A model generated the notes under the pieces. The model did not search any database, was not told where the DNA came from, and saw only the letters and a program-made list of their open reading frames with translations. The position numbers and the translations under genes were made by a program. DNA of 64,000 nt from Escherichia coli (GTDB taxonomy: Bacteria > Pseudomonadota > Gammaproteobacteria > Enterobacterales > Enterobacteriaceae): NCBI RefSeq assembly GCF_003018255.1, contig NZ_CP027440.1; one strand, given 5' to 3'. Positions 10,727-15,078 of the stretch are shown piece after piece; position 1 is the first letter of the stretch; every line of letters begins with the position of its first letter.

Positions 10727-10850
10727 CATCTCTCTGTGCGCAGTACCTCCTGTATTATTGTGGTGGCGGTCGATATTCGCACTGGCAAAAAAACGTGCTT
10801 GAATATCTGTTGAAACCCTTTAACAAAGCACAGGAGGCGTTGCGCGAACG

Positions 10851-11258
10851 ATGAACATTAGCGATGTAGCAAAAATTACCGGCCTGACCAGCAAAGCCAT
10901 TCGCTTCTATGAAGAGAAGGGGCTGGTGACGCCGCCGATGCGCAGCGAAAACGGTTATCGCACCTACACGCAGCAGCATCTCAACGAACTGACCTTACTG
11001 CGCCAGGCACGCCAGGTGGGCTTTAACCTGGAGGAGAGCGGCGAACTGGTGAATCTGTTTAACGATCCGCAGCGTCACAGCGCCGACGTCAAACGTCGTA
11101 CGCTGGAGAAAGTGGCGGAGATCGAACAGCATATCGAAGAACTGCAATCCATGCGTAACCAGCTGCTGGCGCTGGCGAATGCCTGCCCCGGTGATGACAG
11201 CGCCGACTGCCCGATTATCGAAAATCTCTCCGGCTGCTGTCATCATCGGGCGGGGTGA
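10851..11258 (+). CDS. cueR: MerR-family Cu-responsive regulator
   Basis: 135 aa, N-terminal MerR HTH, C-terminal Cys pair (CPGDDSADC). Confidence 0.95.
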
Positions 11259-11989
11259 TTAAGGCTTGCGAAAATAGTCGTCCATTATTTTCGTCAGCTC
11301 CGGACGTTCCCCGTCATCATTGATGGCAAAATCCAGAAAAAAAGCATCTGCTTGCGGCGTTCGGTTTTGCGCCATCAACCGGAAGGTGAGGGGGCCTGAC
11401 CAGGTTTCGGATGGGCTGATGTGCTTATCAGGGCCGAAACTCTCCCATGCGTTGGGCGGTAATGTTTTGCACGCGGTGAGTTTTGGTATGTGGTATTGCA
11501 GCTCTGTTTTGTGCAGACATTCCCCGCCAGGAAATACCAGGGTTTGTTGCTCATCATTAAAATGGGTTGCCGTGCTGAGCACCAGTGTTTTGAGCGGTCG
11601 CCCTTCCAGCGCGGCGGCAGTAGCCTTATGGTGTCCGTCGAGCAGAACGCAGAGATAGGAATCAGGGAGATACCAGGCCAGAGCGCGGGCGATTCCAGTT
11701 TTCGAGAGCAGACAAAAACCGGGCGGCTCCCTGTTCACCCTCCGCAAAACCGCTGTAGACAAATTCCGCACAGGTAGGGCAACCAGCCTCGGACCAGAAA
11801 CGTATTAACGGGACATCCTTGCCAGCAGAGCGAATGGATAAGACCGTGCGAGTGCGGATCGTAAATCACACATTGACGCAGAAATCCTTTCCCGGACTTC
11901 ACCGAAAAAATGACGCCCGCAGCGGTATTTTTCAGCAGACGTACTTCAGGTTTTCGAAAGGGGAAAAAGCATGGCCACTCCTTAGCCAA
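11259..11989 (-). pseudogene. degenerate, frame-split ORF pair with weak calcineurin-like phosphoesterase resemblance
   Basis: 84 aa and 170 aa ORFs overlap in different frames; motifs DPHSHG, LLDGHH, VFPGGE resemble PrpA/PrpB-type phosphatases but are degraded. Confidence 0.2.
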
Positions 11990-12060
11990 AATTTCAGTTC
12001 CCTGAACTGTGCCAGAAAATTACGCTGGTGACTATTGCTCTGGAAATGGAAACAGTGTCC

Positions 12061-12267
12061 TTACCCATTAATCCCCGTTTGTACCGAAAGAATATGTTGC
12101 AAACTTTCTACCATAATGCGCCCCGACTGAAATAAGCCTTCCTGGATTTCATTGTTAACATTCACAGCGTGAACCAGGGAGGCTAATAACACCACTTGCA
12201 AGAAGGCAAAAATAAACGCACCGATAATCATAATATGCGTCAGGGGGATTTTCCTTTGCTCCTTCAT
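12061..12267 (-). CDS. small single-TM membrane protein (hypothetical)
   Basis: 68 aa, hydrophobic helix IMIIGAFIFAFLQVVLLASLV, start overlaps stop of upstream lipoprotein gene. Confidence 0.4.
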   Translation of the reverse strand: MKEQRKIPLTHIMIIGAFIFAFLQVVLLASLVHAVNVNNEIQEGLFQSGRIMVESLQHILSVQTGING

Positions 12268-12686
12268 TTTAAATAACCCACAAACTGGCCTTCTTTCATT
12301 AAGGCGACTTTTCCTGTGTGATGATAAACAATGACATTATACAGACCCGACTGATAAACCGTGGCATCGGCATTATCTTCATCTATGGCACATAATGAAT
12401 CATTGAGATAAGCAAAATTCTTACTACTCATTCTAAAGGTCATGCCAAATCCTTTATAAATGGCTTTTTTTGCCGCCTGGGCATGTTGTGCGGCTTCTGC
12501 ATTTTTAAATGCCTGCGCTTCAGAAGCACTTAAAATAGCCGTCTGGCGCTGCTGTTCTGCGAGATAACAGGTGTCATGGCTGACGCCCTGCGCCTGACAA
12601 TCTGCGATGCGGGAAGCGGGTGAGCTACAGCCAGCCAGTAATATAACCGCCAGCAGGGAAAAGGATTTAATGGAGCTATTCATCAT
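12264..12686 (-). CDS. lipoprotein (hypothetical)
   Basis: 140 aa, signal peptide with lipobox LLAGC. Confidence 0.6.
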   Translation of the reverse strand: MMNSSIKSFSLLAVILLAGCSSPASRIADCQAQGVSHDTCYLAEQQRQTAILSASEAQAFKNAEAAQHAQAAKKAIYKGFGMTFRMSSKNFAYLNDSLCAIDEDNADATVYQSGLYNVIVYHHTGKVALMKEGQFVGYLK

Positions 12687-12771
12687 TGTTAACCTTAAAT
12701 AATGTGCGAATTAATGAAGAGGTGAAACCCGGCAAGCTTCCTTGCTCTTATTTATATTGAGGATTGAAATA

Positions 12772-13788
12772 TTAGAACGAATATCCTACGCCGACACCTG
12801 CGCCGAAATCAGATTGCGTATCCGCAGAAATACCGGCTTTAAGTACCGTATGCGTTCCGGCATTAAAAGATGTTCCGACAGACACCGCAGATTCACCGTT
12901 GAAGGTTCCCGCTCCCGCTGACACCATCATCACGTCACCGGTTTTAACCTGTGGTTGTGAGGCGATAGCGATGGCAGATGCAGTTCCCGCATTGGCTTCT
13001 TTACGGTTGTCCTCAACTTCGTTTTTCAGCGAACTGTAATGGTTATTGAGCGTGTTAATTTGTTGGCTGTTATCTGCGACCCGTTTTTGCGTGTTGCTTA
13101 ACTGTTGCTGCGTTTGTGCGGAATCTTGTCTCAGACTTTCAATTTGCTCATGTGCCTGGACAGACTTCTGCGCCAGACTTTGCATTTGTTTATCGTATTG
13201 AGCCCTTTCTTTTTGCTGTTGTGCTGCCACATCGGTTGTCAGTGCATTCATTTTCTGCCCTTGTTCCGTGGTAGTGCGCTGATTAGCCTCATTTTGAGCC
13301 GCCAGTCTGGCATTAATCATCTCCTGATAATGCGCAGTATTTTGCGTATCTCCAGTCGCGGCGAGCGTTTTTTGTGTGGCTACGATCTGCGCCTGTTGCT
13401 CTGTAATTTGCGTTTGCTGGGCATCAGTTACCGCAGACTGTCGGGCGTTGATCATGCTCTGATAACGGGCAGGTGTCTGTGTATCACCTGTAGCGGCAAC
13501 GGTTTTTTGTCCTGCGTCAGGATCTGTCTGGACAGTGGGAGTCTGAGTGGTATCAGGTGTTTCAGAAGGGATGTAGTGATGTTCAGTCAAATAGGTATAC
13601 GCAGCGGGGCTGTTGTCTGTGCGTTCTAAAAAGCGGGTAATCTTCTGCTCAATCTCCGATTGCGACATGCCAGAGTTAATGGCTGAAAGCTCTGTTGCCG
13701 CCGCTTCAATGGTATCACCAGCTAAAACAACAGGGCTGGATGTTGCTGAAATTATGAGTGCCAGTAAAGCTACGTTTACAGTTTTCAT
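12772..13788 (-). CDS. short trimeric-autotransporter-like protein (YadA-type C-terminal anchor, coiled-coil stalk)
   Basis: 338 aa; signal peptide; Q/A-rich internal repeats; C-terminus NAGTASAIAIASQPQ...GAGVGVGYSF fits YadA-anchor pattern. Confidence 0.65.
   Translation of the reverse strand: MKTVNVALLALIISATSSPVVLAGDTIEAAATELSAINSGMSQSEIEQKITRFLERTDNSPAAYTYLTEHHYIPSETPDTTQTPTVQTDPDAGQKTVAATGDTQTPARYQSMINARQSAVTDAQQTQITEQQAQIVATQKTLAATGDTQNTAHYQEMINARLAAQNEANQRTTTEQGQKMNALTTDVAAQQQKERAQYDKQMQSLAQKSVQAHEQIESLRQDSAQTQQQLSNTQKRVADNSQQINTLNNHYSSLKNEVEDNRKEANAGTASAIAIASQPQVKTGDVMMVSAGAGTFNGESAVSVGTSFNAGTHTVLKAGISADTQSDFGAGVGVGYSF
13310..13510 (-). repeat. imperfect tandem repeat (~100-120 bp units) inside adhesin-like gene (approximate bounds)
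   Basis: two near-identical DNA blocks encoding ...AATGDTQ(T/N)(P/T)A(R/H)YQ(S/E)MINAR... Confidence 0.4.
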
Positions 13789-14154
13789 TCATTTTCTCTT
13801 GTTCAAAATAAGTCGCATTAATGTTTCTATAAGAAACAAATAATATTATTTTAAGAAATAAACTGCGTTGCAATTTAATCGAAATCTACGCCGCCATTTG
13901 TGTGATGTAAAGCGCATTTTTGTCTGGTGTAAGCGTAAACACCACCAATAAGAAACAAAAAATGTTTCTTATATAAATAAAATCGAAAATCATTTTGTGC
14001 TCTTTCAATGTAAAAAAGAGTAAAGACTTGTTTTGATAAGCGAAATAAATTCTGTTTCTGGACTAAACGTGAAGCGGTTCCTGATGTGTGCTAAAATGCG
14101 TTTCTTTGATAAATCTCAATTTTTAAGAGGTTTACGCCAGGCAGGAAAATTTAA

Positions 14155-14517
14155 ATGAATGAATTTGAGAAGATTTTTAATGAAATGAATCTGGACCGGG
14201 CATTGTTACCGATCCTTTTTCGTTCGAACCGGTCGACAGTGTGGAAGTATTTAAGCGGCGATAGTACGGCTCCTGCCTCTGCCATGTCGCTGATCATGCT
14301 GTTGCAGTTGATCCAGAAACGAAACCCCGATCTGTTAGCCGAATGGTTAACGCTTTCTGATTTCACCATTCCGCCAGAAGTTTACCTGGACCAACCTGAT
14401 TACTGGAAAGGGTGGGTGTATACCCAACACAAGGTCAATAAAAACGTCCTGGAATATCTAAAAAAACACTATCCGGATGAAGACCAAAAAAGTATGGGTA
14501 AAGGCCGGGAAGAGTAA
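14155..14517 (+). CDS. hypothetical protein, divergent from adhesin-like operon
   Basis: 120 aa ORF after AT-rich intergenic region; possible HTH-like segment. Confidence 0.35.
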   Translation: MNEFEKIFNEMNLDRALLPILFRSNRSTVWKYLSGDSTAPASAMSLIMLLQLIQKRNPDLLAEWLTLSDFTIPPEVYLDQPDYWKGWVYTQHKVNKNVLEYLKKHYPDEDQKSMGKGREE

Positions 14518-14539
14518 TTTTGCCTCTACTCGGCTATAT

Positions 14540-14626
14540 GCCGGATGCGGCGCAAGCGCCTTATCTGGCCTACGATTCGGGCATATTTTGTAGGCATGAT
14601 AAGACGCGCCAGCGTCGCATCAGGCG
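14540..14626. repeat. REP/BIME palindromic unit pair
   Basis: gccggatgcggcgcaagcgccttatctggcctac and inverted copy gtaggcatgataagacgcgccagcgtcgcatcaggc. Confidence 0.6.
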
Positions 14627-15078
14627 ATGACCGCACGGATAATCAGCGTTATCCCTTCTATCGCAATCACCTCAACATGCGTACCTGCACTGAGATCCTC
14701 GCTGGCGCTGACAGGCCATGAACTGTCACCGACGCGCATATGACCACGCCCGTTGACCAGCGGAGATTCCAGAACAAAACGTCGGCCAATCAACTGCTGC
14801 CCGCGCTGGTTTAAATGACTGTCGCTGTGCTTTTGTTCGCGCACCCGCCGCGACAACCATTTCCACCACAGCCAGGCGGCGAGCAGCGTCAGGACGGCAA
14901 ACATTACCCCTTGCCACTCCCAACCCAGCGGCAGCAACCAGACCACCAGACCGGTAATCACCGCTGCCACGCCGCTCCACAACAGATAACCATTGCCGCC
15001 CAACATCTCGGCTGCCAGCAGCAAACCGCCGAGACTTAGCCAGAAAATATGTGGATGAACGACCATTAACTCCATCAT
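14620..15078 (-). CDS. ybbJ: NfeD-like membrane protein
   Basis: 152 aa, start overlaps qmcA stop. Confidence 0.85.

What the first reader, a model, noticed from the sequence alone, without database searches (positions are those of the whole stretch)
11259..14538. AT-rich ~3.3 kb island between cueR and ybbJ encoding a miniature trimeric-autotransporter-like protein
cueR and ybbJ are adjacent in K-12 (from memory of the gene order). Here they are separated by an AT-rich insert with a 338-aa protein carrying a signal peptide, coiled-coil repeats and a C-terminus that matches the YadA-type anchor pattern, then a lipobox lipoprotein and a 68-aa single-TM protein in an overlapping operon, plus a divergent 120-aa ORF. 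A stalk-only adhesin with a dedicated lipoprotein partner is not something I can place in a described E. coli locus.
Basis: partly seen in the sequence, partly recalled or inferred. Interest (0 to 1): 0.6.

Follow-up and report, generated by a model that had tools for sequence, protein, structure and literature searches.

The report
Small YadA-type adhesin operon (OI-29, gmrA)
The insert between cueR and ybbJ is the known E. coli O-island 29, and its 338-aa gene has every sequence feature of a small surface-anchored trimeric autotransporter even though it was published as "GmrA", a DNA-binding activator of flagellar genes.

Summary
K-12 has cueR and ybbJ stop-to-stop; this window has 3,361 bp between them. 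The insert is composite. One part is a 0.7-kb frameshifted pseudogene with normal GC. The other is a 2.6-kb AT-rich module that matches O-island 29 (OI-29) of O157:H7, also called S-loop 43.

The 338-aa ORF has a Sec signal peptide, a coiled coil and a complete YadA_anchor domain (Pfam E 2.6e-11; PDB matches to the AtaA, Hia and YadA anchors). RefSeq calls it "YadA family autotransporter adhesin" and the Sakai genome calls it "adhesin".

Published primers map exactly onto this ORF. It is z0639/gmrA, reported in 2018 as a transcriptional activator that binds the fliA promoter. That mechanism conflicts with the predicted export to the outer membrane, and both tagged constructs would have disturbed export.

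The module (Xre-like 120-aa gene, divergent promoter, adhesin, lipoprotein, small membrane protein) recurs in other Enterobacterales. Conserved GTTTCT/AGAAAC palindromes lie in the divergent promoter region. The lipoprotein is unrelated to SadB or TpgA and accompanies an adhesin gene in only about half of the contexts seen.

The gene is in 1,381 of 5,426 complete E. coli genomes. Interest is moderate; the locus itself is already known.

The parts
12772..13788 (-). 338-aa YadA-family trimeric autotransporter (= z0639 / gmrA / ECs_0548). By residue: signal peptide 1-23; conserved N-terminal helical domain about 24-77; P/T/Q-rich linker; two ~45-aa repeats 93-182; heptad coiled coil about 190-266; membrane anchor 279-338 ending in ...GYSF.
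   Evidence: ORF. Pfam YadA_anchor E 2.6e-11 over the full model. PDB anchors of AtaA, Hia and YadA. Hydrophobic N-terminus, 3.5-residue periodicity at 190-266 and 2-residue periodicity at 295-338, mature pI 4.9. RefSeq name. Identity with gmrA from primer mapping.
12775..12954 (-). Sub-feature: YadA-type beta-barrel anchor (residues 279-338).
   Evidence: No non-synonymous and 3 synonymous differences from the O157 allele over residues 267-338.
12264..12686 (-). 140-aa lipoprotein (= z0638 / ECs_0546). Lipobox LLAG|C20 with Ser at +2. Conserved Cys30 and Cys40. N-terminal helices followed by a C-terminal 8-stranded small beta domain.
12061..12267 (-). 68-aa single-pass membrane protein. Basic N-terminus, TM at about residues 11-33. 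Its start overlaps the lipoprotein stop (ATGA).
   Evidence: A 43%-identical homologue sits in the same position in Pseudocitrobacter. Annotated in RefSeq.
13883..13911 (-). Conserved sigma-70-like promoter for the adhesin operon: TTTACA, 17 nt, TAGATT.
   Evidence: Consensus scan. The -35 block and the TAnnnT of the -10 are conserved in all six aligned loci from different genera.
13823..13837 (.). Palindrome GTTTCT-ATA-AGAAAC; candidate operator.
13951..13969 (.). Palindrome AGAAACA-N5-TGTTTCT; candidate operator. Further half-sites at 14054 and 14100.
   Evidence: I13, 10-nt arms, 100% complementary. The hexamer occurs 6 times in 366 nt against 0.28 expected, reached by 0 of 5000 shuffles. 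The same motif is present in L010, L012 and L013.
14089..14097 (+). Conserved TGnTAAAAT (extended -10-like) upstream of the 120-aa gene, followed directly by a GTTTCT half-site.
   Evidence: Invariant columns in the six-locus alignment. Reading it as a promoter is inference.
14155..14517 (+). 120-aa protein (= z0640 / ECs_0549); probable Xre-type helix-turn-helix protein, divergent from the adhesin operon.
   Evidence: Pfam MqsA_antitoxin and Xre-like-HTH below threshold (E 0.012-0.12). AF2 model is all-helical, pLDDT 78. The best Foldseek PDB matches are mostly Xre-type HTH proteins (HigA2, Aca2, P2 C, MqsA, C-proteins), with probability up to 0.87 but E about 1. The family profile hits the HigA-2 HTH at E 0.59. 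A homologue sits divergently next to a YadA-anchor gene in L003, L012 and L013. dN/dS 0.05.
11259..11938 (-). Frameshifted remnant of a ~409-aa gene of unknown function. It is a separate indel and not part of OI-29.
   Evidence: RefSeq marks it 'frameshifted'. Intact ORF in strain DSM 103246. Present without the adhesin module in strain C7 and absent from O157. No family match.
14503..14662 (.). REP-type repeats at the right border of the insert, running into the 3' end of ybbJ.
   Evidence: Sub-threshold Rfam naRNA4 (REP-derived) matches. This also explains the many extra BLAST places per genome.

Best explanation
The AT-rich 2.6-kb module is O-island 29, a horizontally moving four-gene cassette of Enterobacterales.

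Its main product (z0639/gmrA) is a short, head-less type Vc (trimeric) autotransporter. The steps I infer for it, from established knowledge of how YadA and Hia are assembled, are:
- The precursor is exported by Sec and cleaved after VLA at residue 23.
- Three C-terminal 4-strand segments assemble through BAM into a 12-strand outer-membrane barrel.
- The acidic, Q-rich passenger of about 255 residues is threaded out. It forms a coiled-coil fibre that carries a conserved N-terminal domain of about 55 residues at its tip.
- Stalk length varies between strains (338, 471 or 594 aa) through gain or loss of ~123-aa repeat modules.

Shown here by sequence: the signal peptide, the coiled coil, the anchor, the C-terminal Phe, purifying selection and the allele series. 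Inferred and not shown: trimerisation, surface display and the ligand.

The operon also encodes a lipoprotein predicted to go to the outer membrane and a translationally coupled inner-membrane mini-protein. I propose these are periplasmic accessory factors for the adhesin (weak inference, about 0.4).

I propose that the divergent 120-aa Xre-like protein controls both promoters through the conserved GTTTCT/AGAAAC palindromes (inference, about 0.5).

The published motility phenotype of gmrA is most likely an indirect consequence of producing or lacking this envelope protein. It is unlikely to reflect promoter binding by the native protein.
For: TAA identity:
- Full-length YadA_anchor match, E 2.6e-11.
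- phmmer matches to the solved AtaA, Hia and YadA anchors, including the helix that enters the barrel.
- N-terminus MKTVNVALLALIISATSSPVVLA|G has a basic n-region, a hydrophobic core and a small-x-small cleavage site.
- Heptad periodicity at residues 190-266 and beta periodicity at 295-338.
- The C-terminal aromatic residue is conserved in 8 orthologues.
- RefSeq and Sakai annotations read 'YadA family autotransporter adhesin' and 'adhesin'; Ogura 2007 lists it as 'Saa-like protein'.

Functional genes:
- dN/dS against O157 is 0.30 for the TAA (0 in the anchor), 0.045 for the lipoprotein and 0.05 for z0640.
- All three genes are transcribed in DMEM (RPKM 96, 20 and 44).

Cassette:
- The same gene order occurs in Pseudocitrobacter (L003) and in the metagenomic loci L012 and L013; a TAA plus lipoprotein pair occurs at a different chromosomal site in Enterobacter asburiae (L004) and in L020.

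Regulatory region:
- The promoter block and the palindromes are conserved.

Against the transcription-factor reading:
- No DNA-binding family passes threshold. There are only coiled-coil look-alikes: TMF_DNA_bd at E 0.074, and SMC, Rad50, DndD and JetC.
- The mature protein has pI 4.9.
- The pET28a construct starts at the native ATG, so the His tag precedes the signal peptide.
- The 3xFLAG tag is fused directly after the terminal Phe of the anchor.
Against: - Yang et al. 2018 (PMC5826968) report a specific gel shift of the fliA promoter and 7.75-fold ChIP enrichment. They also report loss of motility in gmrA mutants of eight strains, complementation by gmrA alone, and increased motility of K-12 carrying gmrA. 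I cannot re-examine these data.
- The same paper found no adherence defect of the OI-29 deletion on HeLa or Caco-2 cells, and OI-29 transcripts fall to zero on attached bacteria. A role as an epithelial adhesin is therefore not supported.
- No head or neck domain is detectable.
- Trimerisation and surface exposure are untested.
- The lipoprotein lies away from any TAA gene in 4 of 9 contexts.
- The z0640 HTH assignment rests only on sub-threshold hits that agree with each other.
Confidence: 0.75

Rival explanations
1. [not shown]
For: - EMSA with competition, ChIP-qPCR (7.75-fold), and epistasis with fliA.
- Complementation by gmrA alone, with the effect conserved in eight strains and in K-12 (PMC5826968).
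- The claim is repeated in reviews.
Against: - The protein has an intact Sec signal peptide and a full YadA anchor. The anchor is under strict purifying selection, with 0 non-synonymous changes against O157.
- No HTH or other DNA-binding family passes threshold. Only coiled-coil noise is found, which is probably the source of the 'putative DNA-binding domain' from CDD. That last point is my inference, because the figure is not held in the library.
- The protein is acidic, pI 4.9.
- The purified protein had a His tag in front of the signal peptide.
- The ChIP protein had 3xFLAG after the C-terminal Phe and was expressed from pTrc99A. Both changes would be expected to keep an abnormal coiled-coil protein in the cytoplasm (this rests on established knowledge of Sec signal peptides and of the C-terminal beta-signal of outer-membrane proteins).
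Confidence: 0.08
2. The cassette is a decaying remnant. The 338-aa protein would be a truncated, non-functional leftover of the longer 471/594-aa adhesin, and its neighbours would be unrelated hitch-hikers.
For: - It is the shortest allele of a length series.
- It has no head domain.
- There is no adherence phenotype.
- A clearly degraded copy exists in Symbiopectobacterium: the TAA is reduced to 174 aa and the lipoprotein is split.
- A true pseudogene lies next door.
Against: - The reading frame is intact, with the signal peptide, N-terminal domain and anchor retained.
- 1,027 genomes carry the full-length 338-aa form at 95-100% identity.
- dN/dS is 0.30 overall and 0 in the anchor, and the neighbours are at 0.05.
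- The genes are transcribed.
- The length differences are clean in-frame module indels.
- A deletion phenotype has been published.
Confidence: 0.07
3. The lipoprotein and small TM protein are not adhesin accessories. They form an independent envelope module, for example a PliC/MliC-like inhibitor of a host or competitor enzyme, that merely shares the island.
For: - Relatives occur without any TAA gene in L005, L017, L021 and L022, twice beside TolA-domain proteins.
- Deletion of z0638 gave no motility phenotype.
Against: - A relative lies immediately downstream of a YadA-anchor gene at four or more different chromosomal sites or taxa.
- The gap to the adhesin stop is only 85 bp, with no convincing intervening promoter.
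- There is no sequence match to lysozyme inhibitors.
Confidence: 0.35

Closest known systems
O-island 29 of E. coli O157:H7 EDL933 (z0638-z0639/gmrA-z0640), also S-loop 43 of Sakai (ECs_0546, ECs_0548, ECs_0549)
   Same: Same locus, same junction between cueR and ybbJ, and same gene order. The TAA is 95% identical at the protein level (96.3% at the DNA level). Published primers match with 0-2 mismatches.
   Different: This window also carries the 0.7-kb pseudogene block next to cueR (162 genomes hold at least 80% of the 3.8-kb query that spans the whole insert). It has ybaT upstream of cueR rather than the O157 type I secretion island.
Short or head-less trimeric autotransporters such as NadA (Neisseria), HadA and DsrA (Haemophilus), and the Eib and Saa proteins of E. 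coli. This comparison is from my own knowledge and I did not align against them here.
   Same: A signal peptide, a mostly coiled-coil passenger and a YadA-type 4-strand anchor. Small size. Allelic stalk-length variation through repeat modules.
   Different: No detectable YadA head, neck or stalk Pfam domains. The N-terminal ~55-residue domain and the 45-aa 'KTVAATGD..YQxMINAR' repeats match nothing described. No adhesive, aggregative or serum-resistance function has been shown.
The TAA helper proteins SadB (Salmonella/Enterobacterales) and TpgA (Acinetobacter), the only helpers described (bioRxiv 10.64898/2026.01.22.700529)
   Same: A small envelope protein encoded in one operon with a TAA. 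SadB is also a lipoprotein.
   Different: - No sequence or fold similarity to either helper.
- The gene is downstream rather than upstream of the TAA gene.
- Ser at +2 predicts outer-membrane sorting, whereas SadB is an inner-membrane lipoprotein (the SadB location is from my own knowledge).
- It is coupled to an extra 68-aa TM protein.
- That survey only analysed TAAs that have a YadA head domain, so this operon type was outside its scope.
Xre-family HTH regulators and antitoxins (HigA2, MqsA C-terminal domain, Aca2, phage P2 C)
   Same: The predicted fold of z0640 residues about 3-60. Small size. Divergent arrangement with palindromic sites in the shared promoter region.
   Different: All matches are below significance. 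There is no toxin partner. The C-terminal ~55 residues (conserved 'PPEVYLxQPDYWKGW' motif) have no counterpart.

Membership tests
Trimeric autotransporter adhesins (type Vc secretion) | C-terminal YadA-type membrane anchor (4 beta-strands per monomer) at the extreme C-terminus | tested here: met
   Pfam PF03895 E 2.6e-11 over residues 279-338 and model positions 1-60 of 60. AtaA, Hia and YadA anchor structures matched at E 1.5e-6 to 0.054. Beta periodicity at 295-338.
Trimeric autotransporter adhesins (type Vc secretion) | N-terminal Sec signal peptide | tested here: met
   MK, then a 20-residue hydrophobic stretch, then VLA|GD. Conserved in 8 orthologues. No dedicated predictor was available, so this was judged by the n/h/c-region and -3/-1 rules.
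Trimeric autotransporter adhesins (type Vc secretion) | Coiled-coil stalk running into the barrel, and a C-terminal aromatic residue | tested here: met
   Strong 3.5-residue periodicity at residues 190-266. Alignment to the pre-anchor helices of AtaA and Hia. Terminal F, W or Y in all orthologues.
Trimeric autotransporter adhesins (type Vc secretion) | Head and neck domains (YadA-like head, Trp-ring, GIN and similar) | tested here: not met
   No such Pfam domain in the 338-aa allele or the 594-aa allele. This is typical of the family but not obligatory, since head-less members exist (own knowledge).
Trimeric autotransporter adhesins (type Vc secretion) | Trimerisation, surface exposure and adhesive function | not testable with these tools
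   Needs experiments. The published OI-29 deletion showed no HeLa or Caco-2 adherence defect.
DNA-binding transcriptional activators (the published 'GmrA' assignment) | A recognisable DNA-binding domain | tested here: not met
   Pfam, NCBIfam and PADLOC give only sub-threshold coiled-coil matches: TMF_DNA_bd at E 0.074, and SMC, Rad50, DndD and JetC. Mature pI is 4.9.
DNA-binding transcriptional activators (the published 'GmrA' assignment) | Cytoplasmic location of the native protein | tested here: not met
   The signal peptide plus outer-membrane anchor predict export. This is a prediction from sequence only.
DNA-binding transcriptional activators (the published 'GmrA' assignment) | Specific promoter binding in vitro and in vivo | not testable with these tools
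   Reported in PMC5826968. The protein used for EMSA had a His tag ahead of the signal peptide, and the ChIP protein had 3xFLAG after the terminal Phe.
SadB-type or TpgA-type TAA helper proteins | Homology to SadB, or to the BamE/OmpA-like domains of TpgA | tested here: not met
   [not shown]
SadB-type or TpgA-type TAA helper proteins | Consistent genomic linkage to a TAA gene | tested here: inconclusive
   Linked in L003, L004, L013 and L020, with a degraded copy in L010. Not linked in L005, L017, L021 and L022.
MliC/PliC-type periplasmic lysozyme inhibitors | 8-stranded small beta-barrel fold with the family's conserved loops | tested here: inconclusive
   [not shown]
Xre-family helix-turn-helix proteins (z0640) | Xre/Cro-type HTH domain | tested here: inconclusive
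   Pfam MqsA_antitoxin and Xre-like-HTH at E 0.012-0.12. Most of the best Foldseek hits are Xre-type HTH proteins, but at E about 1 and probability up to 0.87. The HigA-2 HTH is hit at E 0.59. The hits agree with each other but all are below threshold.

The most novel reading that the evidence does not exclude
The published data and the sequence are both right. Under this reading the YadA-anchored protein, or a non-exported fraction of its precursor, directly activates the fliA promoter. An outer-membrane adhesin would then double as a transcription factor that couples adhesin production to flagellar synthesis.

A milder novel reading is that the z0638 lipoprotein plus the 68-aa TM protein form a third, undescribed class of TAA accessory system, specific to head-less TAAs of Enterobacterales. 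I put that at about 0.2-0.3.
Probability: 0.07. Interest if true: 0.85.

Novelty: already known. Interest (0 to 1): 0.4.

Why it matters
The locus is catalogued as OI-29 / S-loop 43, and RefSeq already names the gene a YadA-family adhesin. The discovery as first framed is therefore ordinary.

What matters is the mismatch with the literature. A protein cited in several reviews as a genomic-island-encoded transcription factor ('GmrA') is, by every sequence criterion, an exported outer-membrane trimeric autotransporter. None of the 8 million papers searched connects the two descriptions.

If the sequence reading is right, three things follow:
- The mechanism of motility control by OI-29 needs re-examination.
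- About a quarter of complete E. coli genomes (O157:H7, O55:H7, O145:H28, many ExPEC and APEC) carry an uncharacterised surface fibre with strain-specific length.
- The real DNA-binding protein of the island is more likely z0640.

The conserved lipoprotein and mini-TM pair is also a testable candidate for a TAA accessory system. The only systematic survey missed this operon type by design, because it required a YadA head domain.

Tried and rejected
- SadB or TpgA homology of the lipoprotein: none by sequence, profile or fold.
- TraV: an NCBIfam hit at E 0.0032 and 18 bits against a 44.75-bit cut-off, covering only the signal peptide and lipobox region. I treated it as noise.
- Anti-phage defence system: PADLOC gave nothing except coiled-coil noise on the TAA.
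- Structured RNA in the insert: only sub-threshold REP-derived naRNA4 matches at the right border.
- Function for the 409-aa ancestor of the pseudogene: no Pfam, NCBIfam or PADLOC match.
- Head, neck or stalk domains in the longer 594-aa allele: none.
- Remote homologues of the lipoprotein: the profile against 1.84 billion representatives gave only 143 hits, about 20 of them full-length and none annotated. AFDB50 returned only uncharacterised Enterobacterales lipoproteins.
- Literature linking GmrA to an autotransporter: two reviews contain both words, but not in connection.
- Terminator and promoter scans over the whole insert were no richer than shuffles. Only the sites supported by cross-genus conservation were kept.
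- I could not see the paper's Figure S3B, so the identity of its 'DNA-binding domain' remains my inference.


Full report
**1. What is in the sequence**

Between cueR (10851-11258, +) and ybbJ (14620-15078, -) the window carries 3,361 bp. K-12 lacks this stretch; there the two stop codons abut.
- a 338-aa ORF at 12772-13788(-)
- a 140-aa lipobox protein at 12264-12686(-)
- a 68-aa single-TM ORF at 12061-12267(-), whose ATG overlaps the lipoprotein stop (ATGA)
- a divergent 120-aa ORF at 14155-14517(+)

The insert is composite.
- Positions 11259-11938 are a frameshifted remnant of a ~409-aa gene. Its GC is 0.53. It is intact in strain DSM 103246, present on its own in strain C7, and absent from O157.
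- Only 11991-14540 is AT-rich, with GC 0.435 against 0.516 for the window. The 366-bp divergent intergenic region is at 0.306.
- REP-type repeats lie at the right border.

**2. The 338-aa protein is a trimeric-autotransporter-type protein**

- Pfam YadA_anchor matches residues 279-338 over the whole model at E 2.6e-11, and it is the only significant domain.
- phmmer finds the solved anchors of AtaA, Hia and YadA. The alignments include the helix that enters the barrel.
- The N-terminus (MKTVNVALLALIISATSSPVVLA|GD) has the layout of a Sec signal peptide.
- Residues 190-266 show strong heptad periodicity and residues 295-338 show beta periodicity.
- The mature protein is acidic (pI 4.9), Q-rich and has no cysteines.
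- No head, neck or stalk Pfam domain is present, even in the longest allele.
- RefSeq calls it 'YadA family autotransporter adhesin'.

**3. It is a known locus**

The O157:H7 genomes carry the same module at the same junction. In Sakai the genes are ECs_0546 'putative lipoprotein', ECs_0548 'adhesin' and ECs_0549. Ogura et al. 2007 list ECs0548 as 'Saa-like protein' in S-loop 43 (PMC2323221).

In EDL933 it is O-island 29, 2,643 bp, with z0638, z0639 and z0640 (PMC5826968). I mapped that paper's primers onto the window.
- The gmrA deletion primers flank 12772-13785 exactly.
- The z0638 primers flank the lipoprotein gene.
- The z0640 forward primer ends at 14154.
- The cloning primers start at the ATG at 13788 and end at the stop codon.

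So z0639/gmrA is the YadA-anchor protein.

**4. The conflict with the literature**

Yang et al. 2018 name this protein GmrA and call it a 'transcriptional activator'. Their evidence:
- a CDD 'putative DNA-binding domain'
- a gel shift of the fliA promoter
- 7.75-fold ChIP enrichment
- reduced motility of deletion mutants in eight strains
- complementation by gmrA alone

Two later reviews repeat this. I found no paper in the library that connects GmrA with a YadA anchor or an autotransporter.

My searches find no DNA-binding family above threshold. They return only the sub-threshold matches that coiled coils usually give: TMF_DNA_bd at E 0.074, and SMC, Rad50, DndD and JetC. I infer that the CDD hit was of this kind, but I could not see the figure.

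The constructs matter.
- The His6 protein was cloned from the native ATG in pET28a, so the tag sits in front of the signal peptide.
- The ChIP protein carries 3xFLAG directly after the C-terminal Phe.

From established knowledge of Sec signal peptides and of the C-terminal beta-signal of outer-membrane proteins, both changes should hinder export and assembly and leave an abnormal coiled-coil protein in the cytoplasm.

The genetic link between gmrA and motility may well be real. What is doubtful is direct promoter binding by the native protein. The same paper found no adherence defect of the OI-29 deletion on HeLa or Caco-2 cells, and OI-29 transcripts dropped to zero on attached bacteria. A role as an epithelial adhesin is therefore also unproven.

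**5. The cassette and its neighbours**

*The lipoprotein.* Its family is tiny and confined to Enterobacterales. It has no Pfam domain, and only 143 of 1.84 billion representatives matched, about 20 of them full-length. Conserved features are the lipobox LLAGC, Ser at +2, a Cys30/Cys40 pair and a C-terminal 'YQSGLYxVIxYxxTGKVALM' motif.

Relatives of the lipoprotein lie directly downstream of a YadA-anchor gene in Pseudocitrobacter (L003), Enterobacter asburiae (L004, at a different chromosomal site), L013 and L020, plus a degraded copy in Symbiopectobacterium (L010). They lie away from any such gene in L005, L017, L021 and L022.

*The 120-aa protein (z0640).* It is the most faithful neighbour. 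Homologues at 45-63% identity sit divergently upstream of YadA-anchor genes in L003, L012 and L013.

It gives sub-threshold MqsA and Xre-like HTH Pfam matches. Its all-helical model has mostly Xre-type HTH proteins among its best PDB neighbours (HigA2, Aca2, P2 C, MqsA-C, controller proteins), though at E about 1. Its family profile picks out the HigA-2 HTH. I read it as a probable local regulator.

*The shared intergenic region.* It holds the hexamer GTTTCT/AGAAAC six times, against 0.28 expected; none of 5000 shuffles reached that. The hexamers are arranged as palindromes at 13823-13837 and 13951-13969.

The motif, a sigma-70-like promoter for the adhesin operon (TTTACA, 17 nt, TAGATT at 13911-13883) and a TGnTAAAAT element before z0640 are conserved across the loci from different genera.

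**6. Population picture**

- The adhesin gene is in 1,381 of 5,426 complete E. coli genomes, always chromosomal. 1,027 of them carry the full-length form at 95-100% identity.
- The other matching genomes carry divergent alleles. The two I examined are longer, at 471 and 594 aa, and differ by in-frame ~123-aa repeat modules. The signal peptide, N-terminal domain and anchor are kept.
- RefSeq truncates these long alleles to 349 aa by choosing an internal start.
- Against the O157 allele, dN/dS is 0.30 for the adhesin (0 in the anchor, 0.34 in the coiled coil), 0.045 for the lipoprotein and 0.05 for z0640. The genes are maintained by selection.

**7. Verdict**

The locus is already catalogued and the gene already named, so the finding as framed is not new.

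The lasting points are three:
- a published regulator identity that contradicts the protein's predicted topology
- a plausible alternative DNA-binding protein (z0640) with candidate operators
- a lipoprotein and mini-TM pair that might be a new kind of TAA accessory system, though linkage holds in only about half of the contexts

All functional statements beyond domain content are inference and need the experiments listed.

Noticed in passing
window 11259-11938 (-); intact copy at L009 478-1707 (-): Frameshifted remnant of a ~409-aa gene of unknown function, directly after the cueR stop. It is an independent presence/absence polymorphism: alone in strain C7, intact in DSM 103246, absent from O157 and K-12. 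It matches no Pfam, NCBIfam or PADLOC family.
   Followed up: partly
L007 1439-2488, L008 1471-2520, L009 2501-3550: RefSeq annotates the longer adhesin alleles as 349-aa 'YadA-like family protein' from an internal start, leaving 0.7-1.1 kb apparently non-coding. In L008 and L009, the two I checked, the full ORFs are 471 and 594 aa counted from the MNTVKL start and include the signal peptide. This looks like a systematic start-site misannotation.
   Followed up: yes
window 10757-10854 (+), just upstream of and overlapping the cueR start: RefSeq marks a 98-bp 'frameshifted, missing N-terminus' pseudo-CDS here. In O157 the same position is the 3' end of a HlyD-family type I secretion gene that overlaps cueR. 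K-12-like genomes may therefore retain a scar of a deleted RTX/T1SS island (OI-28). This is judged from annotation coordinates only.
   Followed up: no
window 14503-14662: Three sub-threshold matches to Rfam naRNA4 (REP-derived) between z0640 and ybbJ, running into the 3' end of ybbJ. This REP cluster probably explains the median of 8 BLAST places per genome for the island query.
   Followed up: partly
L003 3766-5532 and 8050-9936: In Pseudocitrobacter faecalis a 588-aa ORF with no Pfam hit sits between the 633-aa TAA and the lipoprotein. A large serine recombinase lies 1.5 kb downstream of the module, which suggests the cassette rides on a mobile element there.
   Followed up: no
L017 304-2055; L021 945-2027: Distant relatives of the lipoprotein's C-terminal beta domain occur in small-gene clusters together with TolA-domain (PF06519) proteins and no TAA gene. 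In L021 the two domains are fused in one 229-aa protein.
   Followed up: no
window 13789-14154 and the aligned loci in A5: Besides the promoter blocks and palindromes, a third block (window about 14020-14036, 'G-TAAAGACTTGTTTTG') is conserved across genera in the divergent intergenic region. I have no explanation for it.
   Followed up: no
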